NCBI GenBank assembly: GCA_905178155.1
Contig: CAJINV010000004.1
Span: 5,682,828-5,746,827, forward strand
Length of the DNA: 64,000 nt
Reading direction: 5' to 3'
Source of the DNA: Amoebophrya sp. A120
Taxonomy: Eukaryota > Protista > Dinoflagellata
Numbering within the stretch: the first letter of the stretch is position 1; each line of letters opens with the position of its first letter. The notes under the pieces were generated by a model. It did no database searches and was not told the origin of the DNA. It was given only the letters and a program-made list of their open reading frames with translations. Both the position numbers and the translations under genes were made by a program. Positions 1 to 55,300 of the stretch are shown piece after piece.

Positions 1-1566
1 TCTGTTCCTCCAACTTCTTCCTTCTCGTCCTTCCCCTGCTGGGTCGCTATCTTTACGCCTGCCGCGACGTCGTGCGGGTGGTCCTTTTTCGTGTAGTCGG
101 GATTCTCGTGTGCTGCTGTAGCACCGCCCACACTATCATCATCCTGCGTGAAGACGCCTGCATTTCTGTCGGACACGGAGGTCCTCCGAGGGGGAGGATT
201 CATACTAGGTCCTTCTGCGCGAGGACCCTCTGGAAGATGCGTAGTGGCCGTCGTTATTAAGGACGACGAGTCATCCAGCGACTGTACTAGCAGTGAGGAA
301 TTATGTGTAGAAGAGGCCGCATCAATATTTCTGGCGTCTCTCGCCGATGTTTCCGCACATCCGCCGCCCCCTGCGCCGGCGGTCGACGCTGCCATCGAAG
401 GCTGGCGTTCGTCTTGGAGATATTCAGTGTGCTCCCCGTGCACCACCAGCGGCCTTGTCTCTCTTTCTTGCGCACCACTACAACTCGTCCCGCTGGCTTC
501 GTTCTGTCCAAAAATCCTAGCACCGCTCGCTTCTGGAGTCACACGCTGGACCGCCGTGCTTGAAGTCACATGCTCCGACGACGCGGAAGAAGTTGTTGCA
601 GCGCTAGCGGTGGCATTCGCACTCTGCTGGTGCAGCTCGTCGTGCCCGTTATTGAGAACAGCCTTTGGTGAAGAACCACATGGAAGATTGTTCTCGGTCG
701 TCGTGTTCGTGGTCACGACCTGCGCGCAGCCACGCACCATGGCACATATGGGCTCGCCCCGAGCTTGCACTGCGGAAGAGGCTCCTGCTGAGCCGACAGG
801 AGGCTCCTTGTTCAATATCGCGGCGCCTAGTACGACCTCGCTTGTTGTACTTTCCTGCCTCCGAGGACGGTGTACTTGCTCGTTGGAGGTGGACAAAGAT
901 AATTCCTCGGAGCAGGACTGGAGGTCTCCTACAACTGCGCCGCCGTTCAGCAAACCAGTAGTACCGGTCGTACTACCACGCGAGCCACAGGTCGGCGAAA
1001 TGGGAGCTGGCGACAACCCTGCTCTGGAAGATATCCAAGAAAAAAACATTGTAGGTGTAACTTTTTTGGAGGAACTGCATCACAAATTTGTCTGGCATGA
1101 CAGCAAAAACCTGTCACGCGCAGATAGGACGTGACAACGTCCTTTAATGGACCCTACGATACATCCCAAGCATGACAGACGCAATCATCTTGCATCGTGC
1201 GCATCACAAATTTACGCTAACGACGTTTTTTTCTTGGATAGAGGTTGTGCTAGTACTACTATGGGATGCTGTTGTAGTGGTCCCTGTGTGGAAGTGGAGG
1301 TACGAGTGATATGCAAAGAAAAAGTGTTTTACAGTTGCACATGATTTTAATATTGCGGAACACCCAAGACAGACAACCTTTGTCATGCCAGAAATGCGAA
1401 CGACACTCGTTTCATACGTGTTTTTGCTTATGTTGGTCGCAGCTGCATTAGAAACCTGCTTCCCTGTCGTGAAGAGCAAGTTTCTATTGCTAGAGTCACA
1501 ACATCAACATCTTCAAATGTGCAGCTGTGAAACACTTTTTTCGTGGGATATCTAAGCTTCGCTCAT
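1..1566 (-). CDS. Low-complexity S/T/A-rich hypothetical protein, 5' part; runs off the window start
   Basis: The minus frame is open from 1026 to 1 (SRAGLSPAPISPTCGS...KDEKEEVGGT). It joins HFHTGTTTTASHSSTSTT across element 1032-1240. The ATG at 1566 is tentative. Confidence 0.6.
1032..1240. mobile_element. Introner-like intron, family E
   Basis: TATCCAAGAAAAAAAC...GTTTTTTTCTTGGATA. Flanks GAAGA/GAGGT (3/5). Removing element+5 gives T-S-R-A in frame. Confidence 0.8.
1310..1550. mobile_element. Degenerate introner-like element
   Basis: Left end TATGCAAAGAAAAAGTGTTTTACAGTTGCACAT pairs imperfectly with right end ATGTGCAGCTGTGAAACACTTTTTTCGTGGGATA. TSD decayed (AGTGA/TCTAA). Confidence 0.65.
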
Positions 1567-1634
1567 TCTCAGATCTCACTCACGACTCGGTGTCATATAA
1601 TGAGCTCCTCTTTGATTGTGTACACTTTCCTTTT

Positions 1635-4600
1635 TTAAGCTCTTCTTAGCACAGCGGCGCGACGGTCGTGAAAGATGATCGCTTTGCGGGCCAACACCTT
1701 GAAGATGCGTGCTGCAGCCCCTCGCACCCACGAGGAAACAAGAGGGTGGAGGGCAACATCACCGCCGCAGAAATCAGAAAATGGATCTGTTTGGGAAAAA
1801 AAAGGATCGATAATATTTAAGTCAGCATCAAAATTCATACGTTGCTGTGCGTCGCCGCTGGCCGGCTTCTCTGCGGCGGCAGAGGCATTGACGTTTAGCG
1901 CGGTGAGCTATGAGAGTGCACAACTCCCCCTCCCCCTCATTTGTCATGCAAAACACCTGCTCCACGCTTCGCCTCTTGGCACTGTTTGCATGAGAAGTTC
2001 TGGTAGCCCAAATAGCACTACACTCCAGTGCAAATCTGTCATGCAAAACCGGCACTCTTGCTAACGCTTGGATTGCCGTTCATGCTATACAAATGAGGAG
2101 AGGGGGAGTTGTGCGCTGTCATATGAGCATGCGATCGCGCTCCTGCTTTTTTGCGTTCTCGATAGCTTCCTGCAGCTGTCGGTCGTGCTCGTCTTTCAGG
2201 TCCTTTACCGCGTTTTCCGCTTCTTGACACCGCTTCTCCGCGTCCTTCTGCTCCTTTTTCAAACGCTTCTGCTCCTCTTTCAGAGATTCCTTGTCCTGCC
2301 GGAGTTGCGCATGGAGCGAAAAAAAGTTGCGCAAAGGAAAAATTGTTCATTCTCCTGAGTGAAGATGCAGAAACTCTTTCGTACGCCTGCGTCTGCGGCT
2401 CTGAAAGTGCAAGTTGTGCATGTAGTGATTTTACATATACCATCACACCGTAAGCTTCTTGTAGCAACGACGCGATGATCATGATTGTTTGAGGTTCGTT
2501 CAATTTTGTCTGTTCATACAGAAAACACTTGTTTGTTGACAATACAGCAACTGTTATGTCCGTATGCGGAAGACGAAGATGGCCCACAAATTTATCATGC
2601 TGACATTACATTTACAACACCATGCATGGTCGATCTTTGATGTGCAGCTGCCCTTTTTTCGTCTCATATTGCTCCTTCTCTTTGTAGTGCTTCTTTCGTT
2701 GGTATCGCAGGAAAAACTACCGCACTTTAGTGTAACTTAAACTTTGCATTCGTCTACTTTCTTCATCTAGAAAAGAGAAAAACAAAGAGCGGCAGATACC
2801 GATACGATGGTATACAGAAGATGATGTGTGCAAGCTGACCTACTTATGCAGAGTTCGCATCACGAAGTTGTAAGACCAACAAGTTACACTATAGACACTA
2901 TAGTTTTTCCAACATATTTCGTCGTTCCATTCGTCCTCACGATGCGCCCAGTTAGACCGCTGGGTTTGATACATTTTGGTTCGCAGAGATCATGGCTATT
3001 TCCCCAGTTGTATTTTTATTTTCCTAGCTCTGGTACAAGTGCTCAAGTGAAAATCGACTACTGGCATTCATAGCATTTACTTAGGTGACCTCACGGGGGC
3101 AGTGCTGGCCCCTAGAAAATGCAAAACGAAATACGAAAGAGCATCGTCGTAAACCGTGAATTCAAGCTAAAGGCTTCGCTCCTGCCGAAGTTTTACTTTT
3201 AGTTTTGTAGTCGAAATCAAAAAATATTAATATACCTCTTTGTCCAGTTTGGCTTCTGCTTTTTCCTCCATTTCCTTCATTTCCTCCTCATGTTGCTCGA
3301 TCTGCTCCTCGAGTTCTGCGTTGCGGTCGGATAGCTCCTTGTTCCGTTTATTCAGCGTTTATCAAATGCAAAAATGTCTGGATCTGGAAGAATGCAACTT
3401 GTGATGCTGCATTTGGATTCCAAAAAAATCTGTATTGCATGAGTACCAAAGGGAATGTAATTTTTGCTACGCGGAGAGGGCATTTGTCATGCGGAATAGG
3501 CATCAAGAAGCTCTCAAAAAATCTGTATTGCTAGGGCATGCATCACAGGCATCAGGGCTCATGCAAAACGTGCATGACAAGTGTCCCAATCTTCCAGACG
3601 CAGACATTTTTACAGTTGATAGCGTTTTGTTCTCGTCTTCCAGAAACTGCAGGTCCGACATGTGCGCGTGAATTTGCTCCCCCAGACGCAATATCAAATG
3701 CAAAAATGTCTGGGTCTGGGAGAAAGCAAGATTTGCCATGCATATTTCTCATGACCCATGATGGCTGTAATGCATGACCTAGCATCGCAGACTTTTAGAG
3801 GGCTTCCTGATGCACCTTCCGCATGAGAAATGCCCCGTCCGTGTAGCACAAAGCGTGCCCCTCTTGCTGGTCATGCAATACAAATTTTTTTAGAGTCCAA
3901 AAACCGCATGACAAGTTGCAATCTTCCAGACCCAGACATTTTTGCAATTGATACGCAAAAAGTCCTGCAGCATGGGTGCCTGCAGCTGCGGATGCAGCTC
4001 GCTGAACGCGCTCGCGCTGCTTGAGCCCGCGGGTAATACGGCTGCCCCGGGTAGAAGTTGTGCTCCTCCGCCGCGCGCTAGTACGTTGTTAGAGGAGCTA
4101 GTAGCAGCACCACCTCCCCCGGGTCCTCCTCCTATTACACCGGACGGCGGACGCGGTACGCCGGGCGGCAGGGAAGTAGCGGCGGAGACACCGCCACGGA
4201 GGGTCTGTACCTCGCCGCGGAGCACGTCCTGAAACGTGTCGCGTATCACGCGGGCCATAACCGAAGACAGGGAGGAGGGTCCGCCGGGGGTCGGAGTGAG
4301 GGGCCCGAAAGTAGGTCCTCCGGGAAGAGGCGTGGAGGAAATTGCGGGGTGGGTATGCACTTACAAAAAACTTTTGCATGATGTCCAGATCTGGTCGGGA
4401 AAGAGAACTACACTATATCTGTTGCTGGAACTACGAAAGGAAATTCAGATCCACTACAACAGCGAGCACTCTTGAAACCCGATTTTGCGAGCCCTGGGAC
4501 TTCATGATGGTGGCTGGACGAATGAAACAAAGAAGCACTTTGCTTTCGTATAAATATGGTTCTTTTCTTGTGGTGAATGAGTGAGGATCGCATGATGAAG

Positions 4601-6984
4601 AGGTCAACATGGTTTTTGCACTCAAAAAGCGAGTTTTTTTGCATCTGCCTTCGTTCCATGCGCAATTAAAAACTACCTCCCAGTTCCGGACATGATAAGA
4701 TGTTCGTAATGCATACGGCAGTGTGCTGGCCGCGTGTTCGGCTAGGCCGGAAGGTCCGGACGATCCGTCGGGTACCGCAGGTTGGACGAAACCTGGACCT
4801 AAAAATCGTTTCAATACGAGCGTTCTTGATTGTCAAAGGCGTGGTCACGAGTTCTCGAATTGTAGATTTGAGAAAAACTACAGGCGATGTGAATAGATGT
4901 CTCGACGACGACCGTACGTGAAAGAGTACTATTGGAACTACATCGAAGACCGTACAGCGCAACAAAATAATGATACTTTTACTTTAATATGACATTAAGT
5001 ACTCCTTCTTCTATCCAAAATACTTATTACCAGCTGGTAGCGGCCCGACTGGTTGTAGCGGCCCCGGAGCTGCTGCTCCCCCTACACCCGCAGCGTAGTT
5101 GTAAAACCCCCCCGGGGCGGACGGGGTTAGCACTTGCTGCGGCGAGGGCGCGGGCAGGGTGGCTCCTTGACCGGGAGCGAACGTGGGGAAGACGAGCTGG
5201 GAGGAGCTTGTAGTGGTGCTTGTTCCACCGGGGCCACTCGAGGTCCCGGCGGGCGGGGGCGTGACGGGGGGCTGCGACGTGGAACCGGTACTCTTCGTGG
5301 GCTGTAGCAGAGCCGTCGGCTGCTCTTGTTGTACTCCTTGTTGTGCCACCCCGCCTGAAGTAGATGCGGCTGTCGCGGTTGCCGCCCCCGCGGACGCAGT
5401 AGTTGTTGTACCACCGGGCTGCTGGTCCGGCGGCAGAGAGAGCTGGGCGGAGGTGCTCGTGGTGCCACCGGAGGTAGGCTCCGACGGCGGTGCTGCGTAC
5501 TGCAACGGCGCAGTTGTGTGCGGTGGTCCGGCGGCAGTTTGTGGAACGCCCGGTCCCGTTGCGGTACTGCAGGGTATCCAAGGAAAGAACTACTGATGTG
5601 TCGAAAAAACATAACAAGACTTGCTGGAAGTAATACAGCAGCAACAGGTGTCGCGCAACCGGAACTGATGCGTAGTCTAGTACAATAGGAATAGATACTG
5701 CTGTAAACACATACACCACGTGTGAAGTTCAAGTTCGTGTTTGCCCGTGCAGCAGCATCCAGATCCAGCATGACAAAACCGAGTACTTACTGTATTGCAA
5801 CATGGACTGCTCCTTTGCAGCGTTCCACCCACGCAGTTTCTTTCCCGCTGGATAGCCGCGGAAGTGGACACGATCGTTGTCCCACTGAGGTTCGCGTCTG
5901 GCGGCGGCACCGCGACGGCGGATGAGAGCAGCGTTGGCGGTTGCGTAGGTGCACCAGCCGCGCCAACTTGGGATTGATGTTCCCCGGCGGGCGGCCCTTG
6001 CGTTTGTTGCGGTGGAGGTGCCGCAGGAGCTGCTGCGCCGCCCGTTGCACCTGCAGTTGCGCTGGAAACAACGGCAGCTCCGTCTGGAACCGGGTCGACG
6101 ACCACTGGAGTTAATAATCCCGTAGTACTACCAGCACTTGTCGTATTGGTAATTTCTCCCGGTGCAGCGGGCGCAGCGGTCTGTTGCGCCGCCACTACAT
6201 CTGTTCCCACGGAAGGAGCAAGTCCTAGTAAAACCGGGGCGGGAGCTTGGGTCGTCGTGGCTGAAGTTGCTGTTGTTCCCGTTACACCAGCAGCTCCGTC
6301 GACCCCCGCTTGTTCCGCGGGGGGAGGTGGCTGTGCGCCTGCTCCTGCGACGCCGGTACTAGAAGAAGCCGCTGGCGGCGGGGGAGGCGGGGGCGGTCCT
6401 GAGCCAGCATTCTGGCCTCCACTGAGACTGGAATTGGTCGTTTGCTGCGGTGTCGTTGTGGTTGACGCGGCTTGGCCGGTGGCTGTAGCTGCTGTGGACA
6501 CTGCAGCAACAGCAGCAGTACCTCCTGGCGCGTTAGTGTTGTTCGCCGTAGAGAGTAGACTCGAGCCTCCGGCAGTCCCTATACCTTGCTGTTCGTTTGG
6601 CGCAGGCGGCGGGGGTTGCAATACCGGGTCTAGCTGCGACAACACTGCGGAAGATGATGTTGCTGTGTTGCTAGCTGTGTTTGCGGCGGAAATTATCGCA
6701 CCTGTCGCCGGGGGCACGACACCACTGGCGCCCGCGGACGTCTGGTGCTGCTGGCTGCTCCCCCCGCCTGGGTGTTGATCCACGACCTCCCCGGTGGGCA
6801 ATGGTGGTGGTGGCGGAGGAGCGATGGCCGTGCTGGACGAAGCGGGGCCGGTTCCCGCTATCACGCCCGCTCCTTGCGCCGCCGGGTCGGCGGCGGGCCT
6901 GCTCTGGGCAGCAGAATCCGAGCCTCCTCCTCCGACCGGCGGTGGAGGTGGCGGGGGTGGCGCGGTGGCCTCAGAGTTCTCCAT
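1635..6984 (-). CDS. Multi-exon hypothetical protein with Pro/Ala/Gly/Thr-rich N-terminus and coiled-coil C-terminus
   Basis: ORF pieces 5677-6984, 5011-5505, 3890-4360, 2119-2334 and 1635-1838 join across 5 introners and GT-AG introns, e.g. QDFLR|LGEQIHAHMSDLQFLEDENKT|LNKRNKELSDRNAELEEQIEQ. Exons between 2360 and 3230 are unresolved. Confidence 0.7.
1909..2123. mobile_element. Introner intron, family D
   Basis: TATGAGAGTGCACAACTCCCCCTC...GAGGGGGAGTTGTGCGCTGTCATA. Perfect TSD TGAGC. Frame restored (DRML|TALN). Confidence 0.92.
3360..3621. mobile_element. Introner intron, family A
   Basis: TATCAAATGCAAAAATGTCTGGATCTGGAAGA...TCTTCCAGACGCAGACATTTTTACAGTTGATA. Perfect TSD GCGTT. Frame restored. 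Confidence 0.93.
3692..3953. mobile_element. Introner intron, family A, opposite orientation to 3360-3621
   Basis: Same TIR. Perfect TSD CGCAA. The interior is a reverse-complement homolog of 3360-3621. Frame restored. Confidence 0.93.
4354..4715. mobile_element. Old, degenerate introner intron
   Basis: TATGCACTTAC...GTAATGCATA with a weak TIR and a decayed TSD. Removing element+5 joins STLP|PAISSTP in frame. Confidence 0.6.
5575..5854. mobile_element. Old, degenerate introner intron
   Basis: TATCCAAGGAAAGAACT...AGTTTCTTTCCCGCTGGATA. TSD decayed. Removing element+5 keeps frame (TSAA|STATGPG). Confidence 0.62.
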
Positions 6985-8967
6985 ACTGGTGAGTATTAGC
7001 AGGCGTAGTTCCGGCGTACGTCCTACGGATGAAGACGTGGGCGGAAGATTTACTTATTTCTACGCACTTCCAGCTCTAGCACAATTTTGCTTCCGTTTGA
7101 AGATGAGCAGGCTCGTAGTTGTTACTGCTGCTCAATACCCGTAAGTACCCACGACCTGTACGACGACCTCTCTTGTAGCCATGGCAGGGAGAAGGAGAAC
7201 CAACTCGGAGCGCTCACAACGTCGATGTTGTCTTTGGCATAAAAATCACCTTATGCGCTGCAGAAGTGCGTCGGCCGCTCGTGCTCCTGCAACCAACTCC
7301 TGAGGATGAGAACGCGGACCGCAGATGACCTGGATATTTTCGAGTAGGGGAAGTTCCGGCCTCCGGCGACGCGACATCAGTTTTGTTTGCGTTTTCAATC
7401 TTGACTCGCTGCATCGTTTGGTGTTGTTGTATATGCTTTTCTTCCTCCTATGTGGCTCCCTATTTAAGTACACAACCAAGGATAAGTAGAAGGTTGATGC
7501 TGGGCAGGTGATTGTGATCAATCATGAATGGGTAAAAATAGTGTGATGACTCTATGCAGGATTCTTACCGGCGCCAATGGTAATGGAACTATGTTAAACA
7601 TTCATAAGGAGAGACTTCTCAAGACTTGCTGTGAAGATACTTTGCGCCTGACACTGTCGTGCTTTATTCCTCATGCCAACGTGCAAAATGGCTACTCATG
7701 AAAACATGTCTTTATGAACACCAAATACATCTAGATCTATCGTGACGTCGAAGAAAAAAAATCAAAGTAAAATGTTGAAGGCATTGATATGCTCTCTACG
7801 GATAAGTACTTACCACAGAGAATCACATCTACCGTCTGAAAATAAAGCCCAAGCTGTTCTGTATTCGTTAAAAATTGCGACTTTGGCACAGTTGTTGATT
7901 TTTATAAATATAGATTTCTGATACTGATGTTGCTCTGCATGATCATCTTTCTACATCTTCCTCGGTCTCGGAGCTAGCAACCACCAACATGACTTCATGG
8001 ATCTTTTTGTTGTTCGTAATATGATGCCGCGTCTTGAAGTGCCCTGCTTTGACTTTTTCTGAAACAAGGTTCCTCGGTGGGTCTCATAGTGAAGTACAAC
8101 TTTTTCGAATTACTAGGTGCGGGAACGGACCAGGTTGCACCGATTGGATGTATGTCCAGCGATCTGTTTCTATAAATATAGTCTGCAGGTAAGTAAAACC
8201 TTCGCTCAACAACAACGTGCAAAAGAGACAGTGCACAGCCTCGTCCGTTGCATAGTCTTGTTCCGCTTTTCCATTTCAATGTTCTATGAGGAAGTGTTAC
8301 CAAGCAAGACCAGAAATCCCAATATGGCGTTTAAGCATAGGAAGCAACAGCAAGCTGGCACCACGGTCATAATTAGTACCGGCTGCAAAGCGTTGCCAGA
8401 GGACGCATTCAACTTAGCAGCATACGCAAAAGAGATTCCTGTCTGCCAGCTCCTATATGCTGAAATCATCTCCACAGGAGTACGGCGAAAAAAAAGTCGG
8501 ACTCGCTCCCTCCAATCGTGATATCGCATGATGTTGCTCTTTAAATTCATTCGTACCTCCAATAGGGTATTTTGCTCAGCAACATGAACACGCTTGTATA
8601 GAAACGAGAAGCAACACGCCCGTGGTTTATTATTTTCAGCGAGAAACCGAGGAGGCTCCTCGAGTGCTGGCACGCTTCAGATTTACCTTTCTTCTTCAAA
8701 TCGGACAATTTAAACCTCTTTTTCACGACACCAAGCGTTCTCGGATGTTGATGTGTTTCATCTACTGCAGTACAATGGAGTGCCTCGTCGAAACCGCGAT
8801 CAGGGTTCTCCTCTTGAAATACTACGATCGTCGTTGGCTTTTCTCGTCGTTCTCCCCCGTGCGTCCTTCTGCAGAAGCAGAATGAGAATTCTCCGGGCAA
8901 CGAACTACACCCCCTCCTCGGCAGAAGACAATCGTTGCCTTTAATTATTCCACCCGTGCCTCGTGGT

Positions 8968-11251
8968 CTACTTGCTCAGCGCCCGTGCAACGAGTGCGGC
9001 CCAGGTATCGACGTCTTCGCCGGGTCGGGCAGAAGAGGGACCACGACGCGGAGATGATGCCCCGTCCTCTACAGCGTCCTCGCCGCCGATTTCCCCGCAC
9101 GCCCGGTCGTCGGTCCAAGAGCTTTGGTCCACCATGCGTCCGATGTCGTCGCACCACTCCGCGTACCCCGAAACGGCGCGGCGCAGGTGCGAGTTGAGCG
9201 TCAGCTTCATGTCCTTCACGTCGCGGTCGAAGTCCTCCAGGAACCCGAGGATGGCCTCGAGTAGTCGCTCTTTCGGCTGGTTTATGACAGTGCACAACTC
9301 CCCCTCGCCCTCATTTGTATAGCATGAAGGGCAACACAAGCATCAGCAAGAATGCCGGTTTTGCATGACAAATTTGCACTGGATTGTAGTGCTACTTGGG
9401 CTACTAGAACTTGTCATGCAAACAGTGCCATCATCGTCATGTAGTGGACACCCGCTCCCAGTGCCAAGAGGCAAAGGGTGGATTGGGTATTTTGCATGAC
9501 CAATGAGGGGGAGGGGGAGTTGTGTACTTTCATATGGTTCATCAGGGAGGCAGCTTCCTCCCGCAGGCCTTCCCACTGATCGTCCGCGCCGTCGTCGCGC
9601 ATGACGACGTCCGGAGCCGCCGTGCCGCCCTGCATCAGTTCGTCTGCATCGCCGCCGCCAAACACGTGGCTGTTCCGCGCGAGGTCACCGGTAGTAGTTG
9701 CACGAAAAGTTGTCCCGCGGCCCCGGTCGTGCTGGACCTGCAGCAGCGAATGCAAGTGTTGCATCTGCAACAGGTGGCCACCCTGCATGCCGTGTGCCGT
9801 AAGCAAGAAGGTGAGATTATCCTGAGTAAAAACGTCCCCACACCATAGTCAAGATGGGGAATCGGCTAGACAAATCCACAAGTTTTGGCTGTTTTGCATG
9901 ACAAATTTGGATTCGTAGTGTAGTGCTGTTTGAGCCAGCTCAGCAGCATCACAGATCTAGCATACCATGCTGATTGGAGCATAACAAAATGCAAAACACC
10001 GCTAGAAACTGCTTCTCATGGGGCTCCGCATGAGAAACATTTTCAGCATGCAGATTTGCATTACAACTATGGGGTGGGGACGTTTTTCAATAGGATACAG
10101 ATCCCACCCCGGCAGCGGTGTCTTGCGGAGAACGTCAAAACTGCACCCCGATGTTGAGCCACTGCTGGAAAATGTCGACGTCCGCGAAGTCATATGCATT
10201 GCAAAAGTATCGTACTAGTAGTAATCGCATTTACAACAAATTGGCTCAGCATGACAAATGGAATTTGTCATGCTATTTTGCCTTGGGATGGAGATTTGTA
10301 ATGCATAACTGCGATTAGGATTACTACGAGTACGATACTTTTGCACAGCATAAGTCAGGAACTTTGTGTACTGCCGCACCAAAGCCTCCTCCAATTCGTC
10401 CGCCTTGCGGAAGCGAAAGCTGGCACGGACGCTGTTGATGGTCACCTCGACTTGGCACTTCTCGTTCTATGGGTTGCAAATATGTCTGGGTCTGGAAACT
10501 TGTGATGCAAGCCCGTGAAGAATAAGTGCTCCGTAATGCGCCGCCAAGCATTACAAATTTTTTCGTGCTTCTGTGCTGTGTATTTCGCATGAGAAACTGC
10601 GCTTGTGCATGACAGGCCAGAGGACCTCTACTTGGTGCCCACGCAATACAGAGCTCAGAGTCATGCCAGACTAGCATGACAAATCTCGCAATCTTCCAGA
10701 CCCAGACCTATTGGCAATCCATACGTTCTCGTCTCGAGCAATTACGACGGGCTTCAGCCTGCAGTCTGGGTGCATTTCCTGCACCTCGACCTCGGGACGG
10801 TGGTTTTGCCGCTCCACCACCGGCGAGGGCAGGTGTACCACGCAGAGCGCCGCTTTCAGGGTTTCAGCGACGGCCCGCAGGTAGGGCCGGTTCGTTAGGT
10901 GTTCGGGGGATGTGTGCATTGCAAATATGTCTGGGTCTGCAAAGTTGGAACTTGTGATGCTAAATTTGAATCATGCAAAAATCTGTGCTGCGTGAGCGCC
11001 AAAAACTGTCCACTTTCGACCAAGTTCAGGATAGGCATGATAGAGACTTCGCAGACGAGTCTGTCATGCTAGGTGCTGCATTGCAGACCTCATCGGGCAT
11101 GGAAAATATGCATGACAAGTCTGCACTCTTCCAGACCCAGACATTTTTGCATTGGATAGGACGCTGTGGATGTGGTGGAAGGGGGTTGGTGCGGCGGTTC
11201 CTGCTGGAGGTGCTGGGGTCGCTCCGCGGAGGACACCTTCTGGTACTTCAT
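8968..11251 (-). CDS. ARPC4: Arp2/3 complex subunit 4 (ARPC4/p20-Arc), expanded; 6 exons, 354 aa
   Basis: Spliced protein RPYLRAVAETLKAALC..PSPVVERQNHRPEVEV..LKPVVIARDENEKCQVEVTINSVRASF..ADELEEAL..FDVLRKTPLPGWDLTFLLT..KERLLEAILGFLEDFDRDVKDMKLTLNSHLR follows the ARPC4 consensus. Spliced length 1065 nt is divisible by 3. Confidence 0.9.
9283..9534. mobile_element. Introner intron, family D, inverted relative to 1909 and 48560
   Basis: TATGACAGTGCACAACTCCCCCTC...GAGGGGGAGTTGTGTACTTTCATA. Perfect TSD TGGTT. Confidence 0.92.
9818..10097. mobile_element. Introner intron, family C
   Basis: TATCCTGAGTAAAAACGTCCCCAC...GTGGGGACGTTTTTCAATAGGATA. TSD GAGAT/CAGAT (4/5). Confidence 0.92.
10193..10352. 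mobile_element. Introner intron, family B
   Basis: TATGCATTGCAAAAGTATCGTACTAGTAGTAAT...ATTACTACGAGTACGATACTTTTGCACAGCATA. Perfect TSD AGTCA. Confidence 0.92.
10468..10723. mobile_element. Introner intron, family A
   Basis: TATGGGTTGCAAATATGTCTGGGTCTGGAA...TTCCAGACCCAGACCTATTGGCAATCCATA. Perfect TSD CGTTC. Confidence 0.92.
10913..11158. mobile_element. Introner intron, family A (TGT variant left end)
   Basis: TGTGCATTGCAAATATGTCTGGGTCTG...CCAGACCCAGACATTTTTGCATTGGATA. TSD GGATG/GGACG (4/5). Confidence 0.9.
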
Positions 11252-12941
11252 TTTTACCGTGTGTCTCAGTAATTCTTCTTAATATTCCGCTGCGAGACTA
11301 GCACAGCGGTGTGTTTTCATACAACTTGGTGGCCAATTGTCAATGACAAAGTCTCCCCGTTGCCGTTCACTCTGCTAGTAACCATACGTTTGTTTTTTTG
11401 GAAGGCCTGCTACATTCTTTCTTCATCTGTTTCCTATTATCAACGCACGGTGGAATTTTGCTTATGGGAGTAGCTTTATAGTCTCATCAAGCTCTACCGC
11501 ATACGCGATCCGTTCGGCTGGCTTTCAACAATTCCTATGAAGGGTGGGGCTCAGTGTTACAACTATCGCAGCCATGTCAAAATCACCGCAGTTTGGTCTG
11601 GTTAACACGTACTCATCAATCAGCCGACTATCACTATGTGCAGCAGAATAACGTATCACTATGGAATAGACAGAAACAGCACAAATCAATTTATACTCTT
11701 ACGTACATCTCGTTCTCGTAGTAGATAGCCATAAACAAAGTATTTGTATTTGTCATATGTGCATTATGCTTATTTTCTACGGCGCTCGTCCCGCATGCAC
11801 TTCGTCACGATCTATGCTCGACCACACGGTATGCTTTCTCGCTAAGCAGGCAGCAGCTGGTCATCGCTCTGCATTTGTTTTTCCAAAAGCTAGGGTAGGT
11901 TGAAAGGATCAAGACCACCACCAGCGAAAGTTGTGCGCAAGTGCAACCACATCATGATCATTGGGGAGGAACTAGCTTGACGTCTTTTTTGTCGGTGAAC
12001 TTGCTAATTTCAAATTGTTCGCCAGACCCCCAAATAAAGTGATCCACCTGTCTTGTATGGCTGCGCACACGAATGAAACAATTTCAACAGCACACTCCAG
12101 TCGGCGCCGCCGCTCATATGTATACAAAGAGAAAAAAAGCCGCCGGCGACATGGGACAGGCACGGGGCTTGGGCGAACATCTGAGATCTCCATCATACAT
12201 CACTGAAGCGTCACCGGGCAGAGCCGGACTTCTAGCTCACGCACTGATATCCATTCTCGCCGATGTTGCTGGGCTACGATATTAAAACTCAAGTGGGCCA
12301 TTGATGCACCCTCCTTCTAATAGTGACACTGTTTCTGTTCATCTTTATTTCGGTCTCTAGGCAGTGGGCTTCTGAGAGCAACCAAGCAGTCGACGCCTGG
12401 CGCTCCAACGGATCGCGACCAACAGCTGAGCGGACATCTCCCACTGTAGTTTCGTGCCGGAGTATCTAACTATATTCGTAGAGATTAGTTACGTTAGATT
12501 GCCTCCAACGCCTTTAATAACGGGTTCGGACAGAAGGACCAGCACACACCTTAGTTCCCCGTCGGCGTTGCTGCTATCCATTTCCATCCAACCACAAGGC
12601 CCAAAACAATACCTCTCTTCTTGCTCTTCCTTGCGTCATTCGAGTACGTGCCTTAATACAACGCCTGGAAGGCCCTACTAGGTCTTCATTCCTTTCTACG
12701 GGCGAATAATGTCTTGTCAGTCACAGTGACTGACATAAACATTCCTCTACGAAAATGAAACATGCGTAAGGTGCGGAAAATAAAACCAATGTATCAGTGA
12801 CGCAGAGAAGTACTACTATCTTGACTGAAGTATTCTCATCAATTATACTGCTCTTATTTTCGGGGAGTAAACTCCCAAGTCAAACACGCAAAAAAATCCT
12901 TAAAATTGAATGGATGAAGAATACGCCAGACTCGACCTGGA

Positions 12942-22234: not shown

Positions 22235-22295
22235 TCACCGGCATGCTCTGTTGCTGGTTTTGCTGCTTCCTGTCCAACAATGGGAGACGAGCGCG
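22235..22295 (+). repeat. Dispersed ~50-60 bp repeat, with copies at ~23956-24003 and ~26287-26350
   Basis: Core TGCTGGTTTTGCTGCTTCCTG(T/G)CCAACAATGGGAG occurs three times. On the minus strand it encodes SSPIVGQEAAKPA. Confidence 0.85.
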
Positions 22296-22893: not shown

Positions 22894-23015
22894 CGAAACA
22901 GCTCGGGCGAAGGTGTTTCGACGTCGAAACACCTCCGCGCGACCTGTTTCGACAAAACGCCACCGATTAAATCGGCGAAACACCTTGGCGCGACCTGTTT
23001 CGCCGATTGAATCGG
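22894..23015. repeat. Nested palindromic array of a 27-bp unit
   Basis: CGAAACACCT(CC/TG)GCGCGACCTGTTTCG at 22925-22951 and 22976-23002, with an inverted copy at 22894-22920. Perfect palindrome GGTGTTTCGACGTCGAAACACC at 22912-22933. CCGATT(A/G)AATCGG at 22963-22975 and 23003-23015. Confidence 0.85.
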
Positions 23016-25799: not shown

Positions 25800-25866
25800 C
25801 TGGTCAAAAACTTCTCTATCCGTAGTAAAGTCAACCTGGTCAAAAACTTCTCTTTCGTATTAAAAT
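25800..25866 (+). repeat. Tandem duplication with ~36-bp period
   Basis: CTGGTCAAAAACTTCTCT at 25800-25817 and 25836-25853. Confidence 0.75.
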
Positions 25867-46300: not shown

Positions 46301-49300
46301 AAATGTTTGTCTGAAGACGATCTGCCTTCCGCATCAGTTTGCGCCGAGACTGTACTGTTTGAGGACCGCAAGAGCGACGTCCTAGAAGTTGTTCTCTCCT
46401 GCAGCCAGTGCTGTCTCCAGCGCTCCCGGTGATTTGGCACCACCAAGTTCAGCAGGGCCCGCGCAATCCGCGTAATGCCGTCGAGAATGTTCGCTGCTGC
46501 TTCGGCGCAGACTTCCTTATCTGGCTCGAAGAATTCCCTTCTCTGTTCGAATCTCATGTGCTGGAGCCGATCGTCACTAAGCATCTGAATAATGCGGCAT
46601 CTGATATCCAAGGGCTCGCTGAAAAATGCTGCTTCCGAACCGCCATCAATAAGGCCCTCGCTGGTGGTGTTCCTGGACACCGAACCATGTCCGGAAGCAG
46701 TTTTGGAGCTGAAAGACCGCCCTCCCATGCCTGTATTTTTACCACTCTGCTGTTGAGCCTTACGGGCAGCTATCTTCCGCTCCACGAGCTCCCAGCGGCT
46801 GCGACGCTTCCTGACGCTTTCCGCAAAGAACCGCAGTCGGTCCTGTGCGTTGTCTTCACCGCTGGTGGTGGTGTGGTCAAAATACCCCGGGTCGAAGAAT
46901 CGTTGCTGGAGAGAAAGCTTCTCCACGCAGCACGAGTGCGTAGAACCGTCCAGAATAGCCCCCAAAATCACTCCGTCCTGCGGCATGTCGAGAAAAACGG
47001 CAGTCGCGATGAGCTGAGCGACCAACAGGTCGTGGCAGGGAAGGGTGTGGACGAAAAGACCGAAGGTGGAGGGGAGGATGGAGGAGGAGCGGAGCTGTGT
47101 TGTGTAGTTCCGGAGCTGCTGTTTGTACGATGAGGCGTGTCTGCTCTGGTCTTCCAGTTGGCCTATGGTAGTACTACTACCTGCTCCACGGGAGCAGGAC
47201 GAGGTGTGGCCCATTGCGAGGTCCTGAGTTGACAGGTCGGCTGAGCTTCCACGTAGTGCCGCCGTTACTGCTGGCGGCAAGGGTGTGGATGTGACGCGAC
47301 CAGAATTATCAACATCGTTTTCAGATGAAATCGCGCCAGCGCTTTTATTGTCCGCAGTTTGATCATGGCAGTCCGGTGCAACACGTTCGGGAATCGACAT
47401 CTCGACGAAGTTTTGGTCTGCACGGGAGTCTGCTATTTCAAGAGGAGTTTCGTCGGGGCCCATCGACTGGAATTGTTTATTCTTCTTGTATCGGTCTTGA
47501 CCGGCCCTTTCATCGTCCCCGGCCGTAATACAGAATGAGTCGAAAAGACGAGCAGCACGCAATAAGCTAGAGCTAGTGGAACCTTCATCGACTTCATCAC
47601 GACGATCTTCATCTTGCTGTCGCACTGCAGATGATCCCACAAGATGTTCCCCGTGTTGCCCGAGACTCGCGACCCCATCATGAGAACAAGGCACAGCATC
47701 GCCCACAGAAACGATAGAATTTTTTGTTTCCCCATCGCGCGCACTCTCCGGATGTTCTCGAACCGGAACCCGAAGCAGCCCTCTCCGGTCGCAGTCGCGC
47801 ACAAGCACAAGCCAAAGGCCACGATCAACTCCGTTCGCGGTACTTTTTCCACCGCCTCCGTCTAGTCTCAGCTGCAGGTCTTCCAGCATGGCCAGCGTGG
47901 CGTAACAGCGATGGCGCTCGTGGTCGTGTTGCGTACTAACCGATAGTACCTCGGCTTGTTTGCCCGCAGACGCACCATCGTCACTCACATCAACCCCTAC
48001 TGGCTCCCAGACCCACTTATTGGAACGCGCATCCCAGTGGCGGAATCGGCGACGACACACGGGATCGACGTAACCCGCGTACAAGTAGTCATTAGCGAGA
48101 TGACCGGCGATGATCTTCATTGCGAAGTTAAGTTCTTGGGAGACTGCGCAGGCACGTCCTGCAGCTGCTTCACCACTCATCTCGTCGCCCTTCGAGAGCT
48201 TGTTTCTTTGGTCTGCTTGCAGCAGCTCTTTCCTGTTTAGGCTTCCAAAAACCTTTTGGATCTTCTCCTCGAGTCCGCGCAGCATCAACGCCCGTTCCGC
48301 GGCACATTCCAGGATCATTCCGCGTCGGTCACAGTCTTGCCAGTGCTGAGTAGAGCAGTCCGGTAGCGTATCGATCGAACAGGGCGAAGTCAACGAGTCC
48401 TCCTTGCAGTAGTAGCTCCCGGTAGTTGATATTTCAGCAGAGACGTTGTCCTTGTTGACTGGAACTGCAGCCCTACTCTCCGAAGCTCTTCTTGTCCTCG
48501 CGGGAAGATCTTCATCATTTTTACGGAAGTACAAGGGAAAGTAAAAGCCGGGCTGCCCATATGACAGTGCACAACTCCCCCTCCCCGTCATTTGTCATGC
48601 AAAATACCAATTTTAGGCACTGACACTGTGCCTCTTGGCACTGGTTGCGTGATAAAGTCCGGAATCCCAACCAATACTACACTCCTGTGCAAATTTGTCA
48701 TGCAAAACCGGCATTCTTGCTGACGCTTGCATTTCCGTTCATGCTATACAAATCAATGAGGAGGAGGGGGGGTTGTGCACTCTCAACATAGCACACGACC
48801 GACCCGTCCGCGCCGCTGCTTTTTCTGCGCTTCAGTCGCAGGCCGGCGCTGTAACTGCACGGCGCGACTCACCTGGTGAAACTGTTCGCACTTTTGCAGT
48901 CCAATGTCCACTACGCAAAGAAGTTTCGGTAGCGTCACACCCGTCTCGCAGATATTCGTAGACAGAAGGATGTGCAACTCGTTTTGGTTTTATGCAACGC
49001 AACAATCTTTTCGATGTTCCCTCACCGCGACATATGGTTTGCTTTGCGTAGACTGTGTTGTTTCATTGACAGATATATTGCATGCAATGCGGGCCAGCAC
49101 AAGAAACTAAGTTCGTGCAGCAATGTGATCATTATATTCATACAGGCCAGACGCAGACAGACTCGAAGGCGGGACAGGAGACATCATGATCCTTGCGCCA
49201 GTGCATACATCAGGTACGTGCTTCTGTGCGAGCTCGTTATCCGCCCCGGGCAGCATGCCGTGGATCTGGTCAATACGGACGTGGTCAAACTTTAACACGC

Positions 49301-52300
49301 CCTCCAGCTCTTCCTTCAGACTCGGAACGTCAATTGTTTTGCTCGTTTTTTTCTTCTTCGCCCTCGTGGTCGAAGTAGTAGCAGAACCGGTCGCCGAAGA
49401 GATGTTGGCAGTAGTACTCCCCACAGCTCGTGCTCGAACCCGCTGCATTTTGGCAAAACAGTCCCGCGTCTCGGGGTCCCCGGGGAGAAAGACGAGCAGC
49501 TTCGCGCCCTCGCGTTGCACGGTTTCCAAGATTCGGGTGTCTCGGAACACCGGTCCGTTGCTGGCGAGGAGCAAGCGGAGCACAAAAGGGACGTGGGAAA
49601 AATCGAAATCGTTGTAGGAAGTGTAAGTGAAGTCGGTTGGGATAGCACTAGTAGTACCAGGAGTCTTACATTGCAACTCACGGCTTCTTGTTCGGCGCAA
49701 TAAAGAAACAAACTTTCTAGCTTCTTCCATCAGGTGCCACGGTGGAGAAGGACTGGATGCCGGAAATCTCGTCGCGCCTACTTGCACAACTCCTGGTTCC
49801 TGTGATGGAGGTTGTTTGTTTCGCCATCGAATATCTGTCATCTCCTCCAAGGCTCGTAGCGTTTCACTTTCAAAGTCCCGCGTCACCACCGGAAACGGAG
49901 TTCTGCCCTCGACGCAGAGCACCCGGCGGTCTTTTGGGTCGTTCTCCGGTTTTATCGGTATTTCGCGTTCACCTTCTTCCGGGAGGACGGGCGCTCCGTC
50001 GCTTTGCTTCGTTGCGACAGAACGACCGTCGTCTATAGCTTCTTCTTCATTTTGAGTTTCGTTTTCTGTCGCGGAATTAACAGGTGGTCCTACTTCAGCT
50101 GTGTCTACTGACGCGGCTTCCACTCCGTGGTTTACTGCAGGATCATCCTGCCGGTTGCTGGTACTAGAGTGTTTTGCCTTTCTTCTACCCCTTTTGGTGC
50201 CTCCGAAGCTGTGGAACCCGAGAGGTTCGAAATACTGCAGTAGCGCTTCCAGATTTGGCGTCGCGGACATCAGCATCAGCTTAATCGCGGCGTAGCGCGG
50301 GCGCGACAGATGGATGCGGAGGAAGCCAAAGAGCTGCTCGAGCTTTTCGTCTCGTTCGTGGGCTTCGTCTAGAATGATGTGCGTGAACTGATCCAACTGT
50401 AGTTTCATGATGTTCGAGACACCTGTTCCGGAGTTCGCTTCTGCAGCAGCGAGAGTGCTTGTGGCGAAAGCTGCCCCTCCTGTCGAAGTCGTAGCTGGGT
50501 GGTGTGGATCTGTCGGCGCGACGTGATCTTCCAATAGATTCATCGGGCCAAGATGTTGACCGGAGGGAGTGCTAGCTGCGGAGGTCATCGACACGGACGG
50601 TAAGAGGTCTCCGGTTGCTGTAGCTCCATGCCCCGACATGCTCTCTGCGAACAAGGGCCCTTGTCCGCTCGGTAGATTGCAGGCAGATGACGCAGGAGCC
50701 GTTGAAATCTGTTTGTAAAAGTACTCGGGTGTCAAAAAGACAATGGGCGCGATCTTCGGCCGGTCGGTTTCGGTGTCCCCGCCGATCCGATACGCCACAG
50801 GGGAGTTCGGATCCGCAAATAAGCCAGCACAACGATGAAAAGAAGCCGCAAACTTCGCTTTCCTCTCCCCAAATACCCCACACACGTCCTGGGCCAGGCG
50901 CGCGTAGATATGGATTGCAAAAATGTCTGGGTCTGGAAGATTTCGAGATTTCTCATGCTAGTTTGGCATTACTGTGAATTCTGTACTGCGTGACCACGAA
51001 GACCTCCTCTTGTCTGTCATGCAAAAACGATGTTTCTCGTGCGGAATATGCAACAGAGAGCCACGAGCAAATCTGTCATGCTTGGCGGTGCATTACAAGG
51101 CGCTTTCTGTTCACTGACATGCATCACAAGTTTCCAGACCCAGACATTTTTACATTTGATAGTAGAGGCTCTTGCACGTTTCCCGGCGTGGCTGCACCAC
51201 GGCGATTCGGCAGGGTTTTTTGCGTATTCATTGCAAAAGTATTGTATCGCACTAGTACAGATTGCATTACAAACTGGCTTAGCATTACAAATTGAATTTG
51301 TAATGCGGATTTACCTTGAGAAAAAAATTTGTAATGCATGACTGCAATTACTACGAGTACGATACTTTTGCACAGGATATTGCGCACACAAATCTCGTTG
51401 TGCGCAATCATCAACGCCACCAAAGTAGACTTCCCCGTGCCCGTCGGCGCTTTCAGTAGAGAAAAGCGGTTTGCGTTTACGAGACGCAGGACTTTGCGGT
51501 ATCTTTTCGCAACGGCAAGCTTCTTGCTTATTTGCCGATAAGGACCACCAGCATTCGTTGTTGCTGAGCCGAGAATGTGGGTATCAAAGCCACTTTGCAG
51601 GTACTGACAAAGGAAGTTATTGTTCACTTGGCTCTCTCGGTATAAACGGTCCCAGTACTGGCGCATGGTCGTTGCACTTGCCGGGCAGCTTGTAGAATAA
51701 GAATTGTGCAGCTGCAACTGCAGACGAGAGGCCGGAGTCGCGCCGGCACTGCCAGACGCGACAGAAGACAGCAGTGGCGCGCCATCTTCTCCTTGTAGTT
51801 GCCTGTTCTTTTCATCAACATCTCGCAAGCACATCGCGTCTTCCCCTTCTGAGCCGTCGGCTAAACTTGTACTTGTTGCGTCGCTGTCTTCATCTGACGT
51901 CGAGCTGTCACTCTCGCTGTCATCTTCGCTACTGTCTTCCTCGTCTTCGCCGGGCCTGCAATGGTCGTCAAGGCCGCGGACCAAACCGAGCATCTCACCA
52001 ATGATTCTTGGCGGTGGAGGAAGAGGAGATGATGCGAAAGAGCTTGGCGGAGAGGTCTCAGTCGCGAGAGCGCCACCGGCGTTGCCCTCGAGAGCAGTGC
52101 GTATTTCGCCATCTTCTACGTCGTTGCCAGAGAAGAGTTCTTGATCTTGCAGCAGCATGTCTGTTTCTATTTCCGACCTCAACGTCAACCGTTCGTCCGG
52201 TACCGGCGCCAGGACGTGGTGGCGCAGGATGTAGCAACAAAGCGCACGCAGATTGTCGGATTGGGTCAGGTTTTGAGCAACTTTACGAACTGCGTCGGCA

Positions 52301-55300
52301 AGAGATCGCTCTTCGGTAGCAGGAGGCAAAAATGGGTCCGAACTCGTGGATATTGTGTGTGCGGCCGGTACTTCTTCTATGCCAGATCTGTAGCAGTTGC
52401 TTCCGCGTGCTGTCGCAGTTCTATCTGGCGCCAGACCTAGATTCGGCTCTTTGTTTGTTCGCGTGTTTCCAGGCGCTTGCTGGTGCAAAGCAACCAGCCT
52501 GGCACACAACGACCCAAGACTTTCCACAGCTGACTTTGTCGTCAACATATTGATCGGCTGATGCCGGCCCTGCTTCGCGGTTTTTTTCTTACTGGTGGCC
52601 CTTCGCAAGTGTTTCTGTTCCTCCTTTTGGATCACATGGGCAGTGGCGAGTTCGAGCTTTTCGAGAAAAGTTGTGAGAGACGCTCGAATATCAAATGTAA
52701 AAATGTCTGGGTCTGGAAGAGTGCGAGATTTGTCATTGTCATGCACGTTTTGCATGAGCCATGATGTCTGTGATGCATACCCTAGCAATACAGATTTTTT
52801 GAAGGCTTCTTGATGCCTATTCCGCATGACAAATGCCTTGTCAGCGTAGCAAAAATTGCATTCCCTTTGGTACTCATGCAATACAGATTTTTTTGGAATC
52901 CACACGCAGCATCACAAGTTGCATTCTTCCAGACCCAGACATTTTTACATTTGATATAGAAGGAAGCTGCGGAGGCGAACTGGACTTTTACCATTTATTT
53001 CGACCTCGCGTCGAAACCACACTCGTTCGTCTACAACAAGGGCCAGAAAGTTGCGAACAAGAGCAGCCTCTTGGTCTACTCTGTGGCTCCTGACGAGAGG
53101 AGCATCAAATCTCGCCGTTCCAGCCCCCGGTGAGTTGTGCCACTGTGCCGGTCCCCGCGCCGTGGTCTCCTGGGAGGTAGAAGAGAAAAAATCTTGGTTC
53201 ATCGTCGAGAAGAAACAACAGACCCGGCTGCGAGTTGTTGCACTTCTTGTAGTACAACTGGCTCTGACGACGGTTTTGGTTTTGTTGTAGCTGCTCGAGT
53301 CATCGTCCATTCCGTTTTGTGCTTCATCGTCGCTCATAATCTTGCAGGACTTCGGTACTACATCAGAAACGCTTCCGTGCTGTTCTTGCGGAGTTTGTTC
53401 TTCGTTCGCATGCTCTGAGTGGAAGAACTCTGCTGGTGTAACATTTCCGTTTTGTTCGCTGTTTCCCGCGTCCTGGGGTGTGAAAATAGCCGCCAGATCG
53501 AAGCGGCGGAGGCCGGATGAAGAATCTTCACCTGTTACGTCACGACCCTCGCCTTCTCGATTCATCTTCTCGTAAACCACAACCACTTCGCGGAGAATCC
53601 CCTGCTCCAAGAGAGTACTAGCGTTACTAGCTTCACTTGTCCGCGCAACGGTCGGAGTCTTTCTCCCCGTCTCGACACAAGATTGCCTTTGATTTCCGTT
53701 GCAGGTTTTTGTGTGGAAGTCAATCAGACGCTGCTCGCACAGTCGAAGGGAAGTCGATCGCGATGCAGGTCCTGCCACTGTGCCTTGGTCTCCGTGCTTG
53801 TGTTTGCTGGAAAATAATGAGTCAGACTCTGACCGACTGCACCTCTTTGTATCCACTTCAATCGCCCCGCCACCTTCGTAATTACTCCGCCTTCTTCGGA
53901 TTTCGTCCTCTTCGTTGCCGGTCGAATAAAGCCGTTCCCTGTACCCCTCTACCACATTCCAACAGTCCCGCGCTGCATTCACGGCTTCCAAGTCAGCGCG
54001 CGTCAGAAAATCGCTTTCGTCGTGGAAGAAAAACGCGGCGCCGCGAATCCGCAAGCCAATCACCAGCTCTTCGATAGAGGAGGAAGTGCTAGGAGAACTA
54101 CCTTTTTCACTGTCCGATGCCGGTATCGAAACTGGTGTCCACACAAAAAACGCCAGCTCGGATCGCTTGAGAAACGGCCTGGCAACGGGGGCGACGATGG
54201 TTGTACTATGGCCACGAGGCTCTACTTGTCCTGATTCCCGTTTGATGTTTCTATGCGACGGGGGAACAAACCACGCCCAGCACTTCCTGGCCGCGGCCCG
54301 TAGGTCGTAGGTCTCGAGATCTCGAAAGTTCGGCGCGGTGAAACAGACGTCCAGGTCCGTGGCCCAGCGGGCGAGTGTCCTGTGGAAAAGCGTCCCCACC
54401 CCAGAGCTGTAATGCAAATCTGCATGCTTAAAATGCTTCTCATGCGGAGACCCATGGGAGGCGTTTACGTTTTCTAGTGGCTCATGCTCGAATCAGCATG
54501 ACAGACTGGATCTGTGATGCTGCTGCACTAGCTAAACGCAACTACATTGCGAGCCAAAATTTGTCATGCGCGACAGCCAAAGTGTAGGGATTTGTGTACC
54601 AGATTTCCCATCTTCACTCTGGTGTGGAAACGTTTTTACTCAGGATAGCGAGGAAGGTCAAGCAAACGGCTCTCCTAAACTCGAAGACACAAGCGTCGTC
54701 CATGGTGATGCGATATCAAATGCAAATATGTCTGGGTCTGGACGAAGGTTGGAACTTGTAATGCTGGTCTTGCATTCCTGTGAAATCTGTATTGCATGAC
54801 CAACAAAAGTGGCAGCCTCTCACGTCATACAAAAACGCAGTTTCTCATGCGGAGTCCATATGATAGAGCGTTGCGCAGACTTGTCATGCTTTCCTGCATG
54901 AGGAAGCGTTTTCATCGTGCACATTCTAGCATCACAAATTTCCAGACCCAGACATATTTGCACTTGATATGCGATCTTGGCGGAACAGGCTTCGCTTCGC
55001 GGACACGGAAAACAGCCAGGAGGAGGAATAGCCGTTGCTGTTGTCCTTACTGCAGCGTTGCGTCCTCGGGTCGACAGTGTTTCTCGTCTGTGAAGGGTGA
55101 AGTAGAGAACCCGCACAGCAGGCTTCATGATCTTCTTGACCGGACGAGATGTTTTCAGTTCTTTCCGGCACCTCCCTTGCTGTCTGCTCCGCCTCGTCAG
55201 GACGAGAAGGTAAACGGGCTCTCAGCAAAAATGAGGAGCTCGTTGGCTGGGTTACCGCACCATGTTGACTGCCGAGCGGCCCTGTAACGCCGCCACCACA

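What the first reader, a model, noticed from the sequence alone, without database searches (positions are those of the whole stretch)
3360..3953. The same introner works in both orientations, here within one gene
Seen: 3360-3621 and 3692-3953 are 262-bp family-A copies 70 bp apart in opposite orientations, and both must be removed from the same transcript. The same holds for family C (9818 vs 20283/35741/54376), family D (9283 vs 1909/48560) and 10468 vs 50909. All hosts are minus-strand genes. Established: spliceosomal introns are polar (donor, branch point, acceptor). Inference: recognition depends on the symmetric terminal hairpin or a symmetric protein site, pointing to structure-guided cleavage and ligation, or to DNA excision.
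Basis: partly seen in the sequence, partly recalled or inferred. Interest (0 to 1): 0.8.

Follow-up and report, generated by a model that had tools for sequence, protein, structure and literature searches.

The report
Hairpin introns spliced either way round
Two copies of one small transposon sit back to back inside a gene of what is likely the marine parasite Amoebophrya, and both are missing from a probable transcript assembly although they lack normal intron borders; this intron class is already published, and the new part is a likely cutting rule (one base before the insert, four after) that makes its unknown splicing mechanism testable.

Summary
Observation confirmed: 3360-3621 and 3692-3953 are 262-bp copies, 79% identical only in opposite orientation, each with a 5-bp target duplication, inside one minus-strand 973-codon frame. 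They match the published introner elements of Amoebophrya A120 (Farhat 2021). A spliced contig lacks both and keeps the 65-nt exon (inferred from piece boundary and nine depth bins). Four families are missing from probable RNA contigs in both orientations; DNA-like contigs keep the elements. In 144 related loci orientations are near even (A 39:31). Three junctions fix the cut at 1 nt before TAT and 4 nt after ATA; no AG (0 of 35). DNA excision is disfavoured; spliceosome versus hairpin-guided nuclease stays open (0.5 vs 0.35). At equilibrium the pair would zip into a 218-bp duplex and skip the exon, so recognition is likely co-transcriptional. The scan noted the 1+4 rule before on other pieces of this genome.

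The parts
3360..3621 (.). Family-A introner, orientation 1; TAT...ATA, target duplication GCGTT; predicted intron 3356-3622 on the minus-strand transcript
   Evidence: removal inferred
3692..3953 (.). Family-A introner, orientation 2; target duplication CGCAA; predicted intron 3688-3954
   Evidence: contig piece starts at 3953
3623..3687 (-). 65-nt exon between the two copies; skipping it shifts the frame
   Evidence: stop at codon 741 if skipped; kept in record 10 by inference
1634..7053 (-). Host gene: 973 codons without stop after removal of 7 introners and 2 GT-AG introns (4799-5030, 2960-3235); low-complexity N-half, coiled-coil-like C-half; lower limit approximate
   Evidence: no Pfam hit for the first exon
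1909..2123 (.). Family-D introner, orientation 1, same gene
   Evidence: removal by arithmetic only
2310..2668 (.).
   Evidence: needed to fit the 1-nt and 72-nt depth bins
2703..2916 (.). Older introner, decayed duplication
4354..4715 (.). Older introner without duplication; removed span 4350-4716 fixes the cut at 1 before / 4 after
   Evidence: upper limit from record length and depth
5575..5854 (.). Older introner without duplication; removed span 5571-5855 fixes the cut
   Evidence: record 10 positions 1519/1520
9283..9534 (.). Family-D introner, orientation 2, removed
   Evidence: record 11 positions 611/612
9818..10097 (.). Family-C introner, orientation 1, removed
   Evidence: piece ends 9813; 199-nt gap matches
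10193..10352 (.). Family-B introner, removed
   Evidence: 199-nt arithmetic
10468..10723 (.). Family-E (A-related) introner, orientation 2, removed
10913..11158 (.). Family-A introner, orientation 1; starts TGT; removed; cut 0-3 nt before TAT on the transcript
   Evidence: record 11 positions 1273/1274
   Evidence: 283-codon minus frame after removal
48560..48790 (.). Family-D introner, orientation 1; removed; cut 0-2 nt before TAT although the 5' arm has a 3-nt insertion
   Evidence: joint 48554>48791 (one contig, X5)
48991..49207 (.). Older introner without duplication; removed span 48987-49208 fixes the cut
   Evidence: joint 48986>49209, both=0 (one contig, X6)
50909..51161 (.). Family-E introner, orientation 1; not bridged by RNA contigs
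52689..52956 (.). Family-A introner, orientation 2, 91% identical to the reverse of 3360; imperfect duplication, the best unused test of the cut; not bridged
54376..54647 (.). Family-C introner, orientation 2; starts TGT; removed
   Evidence: joint 54370>54648 (X3, X4)
54714..54969 (.). Family-E introner, orientation 1; removed
   Evidence: joint 54707>54969 (X3, X4)

Best explanation
These are non-autonomous inverted-repeat transposons that insert in either orientation with a 5-base duplication and are likely removed from the pre-mRNA, probably by a relaxed U2-type spliceosome acting during transcription, with the cut likely set one base before the first TAT and four bases after the last ATA. 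Because both ends carry the same grammar (TAT, C or G, then a run of A near position 11-15), either strand offers the same donor-like start (N-U-A-U-C/G, with U in the place of the U of GU) and the same U run 15-19 nt before the 3' cut. Removing element plus 5 nt restores the pre-insertion codons exactly, so no target filter for GT or AG is needed. Shown: element anatomy, near-even orientations, absence from spliced contigs in both orientations, presence in DNA-like contigs, the 1+4 cut at three junctions. Inferred: that the cut follows the transcript and not the element, that recognition is co-transcriptional, and that the spliceosome is the catalyst.
For: RNA level: contigs that lack the elements also lack two GT-AG introns, and DNA-like contig X1 record 4 runs 3926-9312 unbroken. 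Both orientations removed for A, C, D, E. Cut: unique 1+4 at 4354, 5575, 48991; mirror placement (4+1) excluded at 10913 and 48560; 9818 excludes 0. All nine leading A120 non-canonical classes in Farhat Table S4 begin with N-T. Exact 5-nt duplication in 175 of 217 copies versus at most 3 for other lengths 3-8. Farhat report U2, U4, U6, A120 U5 and 83 of 89 spliceosomal proteins, U1 not found. Precedents. Equilibrium fold of the pair gives the wrong substrate, while the first-made copy keeps its own hairpin until the transcript passes about 3550. A post-hoc asymmetry fits a polar 3' signal: an A-to-G variant at repeat position 15 lies at the transcript 3' end in 26 elements versus 8 at the 5' end, in both orientations (13 and 12), family-wise p 0.02.
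Against: No AG (0 of 35 in the window, 14 of 164 in loci) and no G excess at +1 (9 of 35; 41 of 164). The 3' cut lies in variable target sequence, so it must be measured, not read. The two ends are otherwise equally conserved (5 versus 9 elements deviate from TAT[CG], p 0.42; sign tests p 0.12-1). A stable stem would hide both the donor-like site and the U run. A nuclease sitting on an RNA stem also tells 5' arm from 3' arm, so the uneven cut does not single out the spliceosome. All five junctions that exclude the mirror cut are in minus-strand genes and none is a within-family contrast (4354, 5575, 48991 could not be oriented; 52689 not bridged); five agreeing has p about 0.06 if the cut followed randomly oriented elements. 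Table S4 classes also mostly end A-N (8 of 9), which fits either polarity. RNA status of X3-X6 is a guess by the tool, from one study.
Confidence: 0.5

Rival explanations
1. A spliceosome-independent enzyme binds the base of the terminal RNA stem as it forms, cuts 1 nt outside on the 5' arm and 4 nt outside on the 3' arm, and a ligase joins the exons, as proposed for Euglena nonconventional introns.
For: Terminal stems are predicted in 11 of 11 tested elements with RNA support (20-29 pairs among the end 30 nt), also in three old elements whose duplication has decayed; 9 of 14 old elements pair better with their own end than with any foreign end. No GT or AG need. U1 not found. Euglena introns have an offset paired signature and point-mutation support (PMC12501133).
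Against: The equilibrium fold of the pair offers outer ends whose use would skip the exon, yet the exon appears kept. Copies with a mismatch in the terminal pairs (10913, 54376, 2310) or a 3-nt insertion in one arm (48560) are still cut at element plus 5. No excess of G-U over A-C pairs on the transcript strand (54 vs 60) and no sense-strand stability excess. The position-15 variant favours the weaker A-C pairing.
Confidence: 0.35
2. The elements are cut out of the DNA at some life stage (like ciliate internal eliminated sequences), so transcripts come from empty sites.
For: Transposon anatomy; exact restoration of the target; only one DNA-like run was laid and it may be the source of the assembly.
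Against: X1 contigs at depth 40-47 run into or through the elements. Removal is exact and one-sided even where no duplication is left. Farhat call these introns from RNA-seq against the genome.
Confidence: 0.04
3. The gaps are reverse-transcriptase template-switch artefacts at hairpins flanked by direct repeats.
For: Hairpin plus short direct repeat is the known signature of such artefacts (own knowledge); only assembled contigs were seen, not reads.
Against: Three removed elements have no direct repeat yet share one register; genes only read open (973 and about 4,000 codons) when the elements are gone.
Confidence: 0.02

Closest known systems
Introner elements among the non-canonical introns of Amoebophrya sp. 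A120 (Farhat et al. 2021, PMC7789003; seen: abstract, sections 10-12 and 16, passages, supplement legends and Tables S4/S7 rows; figures not seen)
   Same: Inverted repeats starting TAT, seven variable bases, then A run; 3-5-nt direct repeats; about 240 nt; families; no GT-AG; co-oriented genes. Almost certainly the same elements.
   Different: The text searched does not mention element orientation ('strand' 0 hits; 'orientation' only for gene blocks) and calls the splice sites variable relative to the hairpin; here a single 1+4 placement fits all 11 junctions examined.
Both-orientation introners of Polarella glacialis and Aureococcus anophagefferens (bioRxiv 2020.10.14.339549, passages; Huff et al. 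2016 not held, seen only as cited there and in PMC10228655)
   Same: DNA-transposon-derived introns that work in either orientation, with the target duplication absorbed by splicing.
   Different: They build GT/GC/GA and AG sites from element and duplication; these need neither G at +1 nor AG.
Non-canonical introns of Fritillaria borealis (bioRxiv 2025.08.15.670264, introduction; PMC11282704 section 6)
   Same: Inverted-repeat transposon ends as non-GT-AG splice sites; reported to need the U2 spliceosome.
   Different: Dominant AG-AC/AG-AT ends and U1 conserved; here N-T...N-N ends and U1 not found.
Euglena nonconventional introns (PMC12501133, abstract and passages)
   Same: Paired ends offset unevenly from the cuts, direct repeats, no GT-AG, unknown machinery.
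   Different: Signature N3-CDG...CHG-N5-6 differs from N-TAT[CG]...[CG]ATA-N4; circular excised RNA reported there, untested here.

Membership tests
Amoebophrya A120 introner elements | Non-GT-AG intron absent from RNA | tested here: met
   (probable RNA contigs); 0 of 35 end in AG
Amoebophrya A120 introner elements | Terminal inverted repeat starting TAT, seven variable bases, then three or more A | tested here: met
   TAT at 34 of 35 5' ends; A at positions 11-14 in 23-29 of 35
Amoebophrya A120 introner elements | 3-5-nt direct repeat at the borders | tested here: met
   5-nt repeat at both copies; 175 of 217 in loci
Amoebophrya A120 introner elements | Repeated families of about 240 nt | tested here: met
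Amoebophrya A120 introner elements | Source organism is strain A120 | not testable with these tools
   no genome held; organism name coded; inferred from the match to the paper and from unchecked scan notes
Non-autonomous inverted-repeat DNA transposon (MITE-like) | Inverted ends, fixed duplication, no coding frame, insertion in both orientations | tested here: met
Non-autonomous inverted-repeat DNA transposon (MITE-like) | Cognate transposase with the same ends | not tested
   no genome held; PMC12130899 (passages) describes A120 inverted-repeat elements with integrase-related frames
Canonical U2 spliceosomal intron | GT/GC donor and AG acceptor | tested here: not met
   GT 9 of 35 and 41 of 164; AG 0 of 35 and 14 of 164
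Canonical U2 spliceosomal intron | Branch point, lariat, snRNP dependence | not testable with these tools
   no raw reads of this strain; only a hint at repeat position 15
Polarella/Aureococcus both-orientation introners | Intron formed in either orientation | tested here: met
Polarella/Aureococcus both-orientation introners | Canonical splice sites taken from element and duplication | tested here: not met
   no placement gives both GT/GC and AG
Euglena nonconventional introns | N3-CDG...CHG-N5-6 signature | tested here: not met
   intron base +4 is T in 34 of 35 under the 1+4 cut
Euglena nonconventional introns | Paired ends; circular excised RNA | tested here: inconclusive
   pairing predicted; excised product not seen

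The most novel reading that the evidence does not exclude
This alveolate has a second, spliceosome-independent nuclear splicing machine that catches each transposon hairpin as it is transcribed, cuts with a fixed 1+4 stagger and ligates the exons, blind to orientation and to the flanking sequence; back-to-back copies such as 3360/3692 would then expose its timing through skipped or circularised 65-nt exons when it is slowed.
Probability: 0.3. Interest if true: 0.85.

Novelty: new variant of a known kind. Interest (0 to 1): 0.42.

Why it matters
About 30,000 such introns are reported in A120 and how they are removed is an open question. A single rule (one base before TAT, four after ATA, either orientation, exact restoration of the target) turns 'variable splice sites' into one testable substrate, would fix gene models for this genome, and explains why these transposons can enter almost any exon position at little cost. 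The back-to-back pair is a natural experiment on timing: the finished RNA would fold the wrong way, so removal must beat refolding or rely on proteins that pair nearest ends. The elements themselves and both-orientation introners in general are already in print, which caps the interest.

Tried and rejected
No whole genome held. Raw RNA runs: X9 laid 0 reads and X10 only 120 partial reads on one repeat, so no test; no run on record as RNA was listed as holder. The DNA-like run swamped the joint table, so the pair's joints were not displayed. The second lay did not bridge 50909, 51225 or 52689 at depth 2-5. Two protein searches for the helicase-like host found nothing, so no annotated junctions. 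Depletion of T before TAT in the window (2 of 35) did not repeat in the loci (34 of 164 vs 31 mirror): dropped. General 5'/3' conservation asymmetry: none. Sense versus antisense stem stability: none. A/T bias in decayed duplications as a pointer to the cut: 21 of 44, no signal. Depletion of close inverted pairs: not seen (7 of 20 within 600 nt; 27 of 61 within 3 kb). Two viral-collection matches are 22-27-nt chance hits in AT-rich coding DNA. Elements 4354, 5575, 48991 could not be assigned an orientation. Huff et al. 2016 was not held. Figures of Farhat (logos, snRNA alignments, Fig. S19-S23) could not be seen and may show the offset. Scan look-ups near this place and for inverted neighbours returned nothing.

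Full report
Observation. The window holds at least 36 elements bounded by TAT...ATA inverted repeats (35 tabulated, one more), about 14% of its length. The two named copies are 262 bp, 70 bp apart, flanked by GCGTT and CGCAA duplications. They align at 79% in opposite and 62% in the same orientation; without the end 45 nt the scores are 178 and -26, and an interior-only profile agrees. Removal of each element plus 5 nt opens long minus-strand frames, among them 12,081 nt across five elements at 50.9-55 kb.

Host gene and RNA. Run X3 (RNA is the tool's guess) gave two long contigs over 900-11400. Record 11 joins directly across 9283 (D) and 10913 (A) and leaves 199 nt between 9813 and 10724, exactly what removal of 9818, 10193 and 10468 predicts. 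Record 10 joins directly across 5575, starts a piece at 3953 and has 500 nt before it. A model with seven introners and two GT-AG introns removed gives 973 codons without a stop and predicts all 9 depth bins tested to within rounding; bins piled with repeat contigs and one bin below 1601 were left out. Use of the outer ends of the pair predicts a piece starting at 3955 and 120 nt (depth 6.94) in the bin where 118 nt (6.83) is seen. So both copies are likely removed and the 65-nt exon kept; this is inference from table arithmetic, and contigs drop rare forms. The second lay showed 4 joints: 48560 (D, X5), a new element at 48991 (X6), 54376 (C) and 54714 (E) (X3, X4); three elements there were not bridged. 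Thus A, C, D and E are each missing in both orientations, 7 elements directly and 9 by arithmetic. X3-X6 are at most two samples of one study. DNA-like run X1 keeps the elements: one contig runs 3926-9312 unbroken; it may be the assembly's source.

Where the cut falls. Of 11 junctions examined, all remove element plus 5 nt. Three without a duplication fix the cut on the transcript at 1 nt before TAT and 4 nt after ATA; two more exclude the mirror placement; one excludes 0; five are uninformative. Under this rule 9 of 35 introns start GT and 0 of 35 end AG. Farhat's Table S4 lists nine leading A120 classes, all starting N-T; eight also end A-N, so the table supports the one-base offset but cannot tell transcript polarity from element polarity. 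No within-family contrast of the cut in both orientations was obtained.

More copies. Host strand was called from flanking codons for 164 (agreement within loci 54 of 57; 9 of 9 confident calls among 23 window elements correct). Orientation relative to the transcript in the 161 that could be oriented: A 39:31, E 20:8, B 18:15, C 9:11, D 3:1, G 1:4, F 1:0. Neither GT (41 of 164) nor AG (14 of 164) is favoured. The ends are equally conserved overall. One position differs: the A-to-G variant at repeat position 15 of A/E copies sits at the 3' end in 26 and at the 5' end in 8 (family-wise p 0.02; 20 vs 6 with one per locus), in both orientations. It puts a C 19 nt before the 3' cut, after an A and before the U run, and weakens the stem. 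This was found post hoc and is a lead only; strand-biased mutation is not excluded.

Folding. Each copy alone closes its own terminal stem (mean P 0.94). Together they are predicted to form 218 pairs with each other, 95 kcal/mol better than the best fold without such pairs, with the outer ends paired. The first-transcribed copy keeps its own stem until the transcript passes about 3550, some 140-190 nt after its 3' cut. All five opposite pairs within 400 nt fold this way, and such pairs are not rare. A machine reading the finished fold would skip the exon, so ends are likely paired or cut during transcription.

Mechanism. Best reading (0.5): a U1-less, relaxed U2-type spliceosome takes N-UAU-C/G as donor and measures the acceptor 4 nt past the repeat; symmetry of the repeat supplies both signals on either strand. 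Close rival (0.35): a co-transcriptional stem-binding nuclease plus ligase; the uneven cut fits it equally well. DNA excision (0.04) and template switching (0.02) fit poorly.

Known and new. The elements match Farhat et al. 2021. Both-orientation introners are described for Polarella and Aureococcus (review passage), and Gozashti 2022 searched for opposite-orientation copies as routine (passage). Fritillaria and Euglena give one precedent for each mechanism. I found no printed statement of orientation independence or a fixed 1+4 cut for Amoebophrya in searches or in the text of Farhat; its figures were not visible and subscription papers are mostly not held. Six unchecked notes of this scan state the same rule or orientation independence for other pieces of this genome; my reading was written down before I saw them, and they are not independent support.

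Verdict. The cutting rule and the back-to-back pair make the open mechanism testable. Interest 0.42.

Noticed in passing
window 49209-62400, minus strand: About 4,000-codon frame with two DEAH-helicase-like cores (two Walker A and two DEAH-type motifs by eye; Pfam DEAD and Helicase_C only below cut-off), split by five introners; no homolog in two length-limited searches.
   Followed up: partly
loci L001-L144, family A/E repeat position 15: A-to-G variant lies mostly at the transcript 3' end (26 vs 8), whichever way the element points; possible branch-site or mutation-bias signal.
   Followed up: partly
window 48560-48790: 5' arm has a 3-nt insertion relative to the 3' arm, yet removal is element plus 5 nt (one contig); the cut follows the terminal bases, not the main stem.
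   Followed up: partly
window 2310, 10913, 54376: Three elements with RNA support deviate from ATA at the transcript 3' end; no RNA-supported element deviates from TAT at the 5' end. Not significant in the larger set.
   Followed up: yes
all families: A short CATG-centred internal motif recurs in both directions across unrelated families (about 40 hits inside elements versus 6-8 outside); possible transposase or splicing-factor site.
   Followed up: partly
window 13800-14300, 16900-19700 and 21000-26000: Stretches without TAT...ATA elements or long frames, with a 57-nt direct repeat (22235, 26287, part at 23956) and a nested palindrome at 22867-23029; may be decayed large mobile elements.
   Followed up: no
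window 31227-31385 and 34592-34726: Two further family-B-like elements, one with TAC/ATG ends on the transcript strand.
   Followed up: partly
loci family E: Orientation split 20:8 (uncorrected p about 0.04) may hide a mild bias, as reported for Polarella classes.
   Followed up: no
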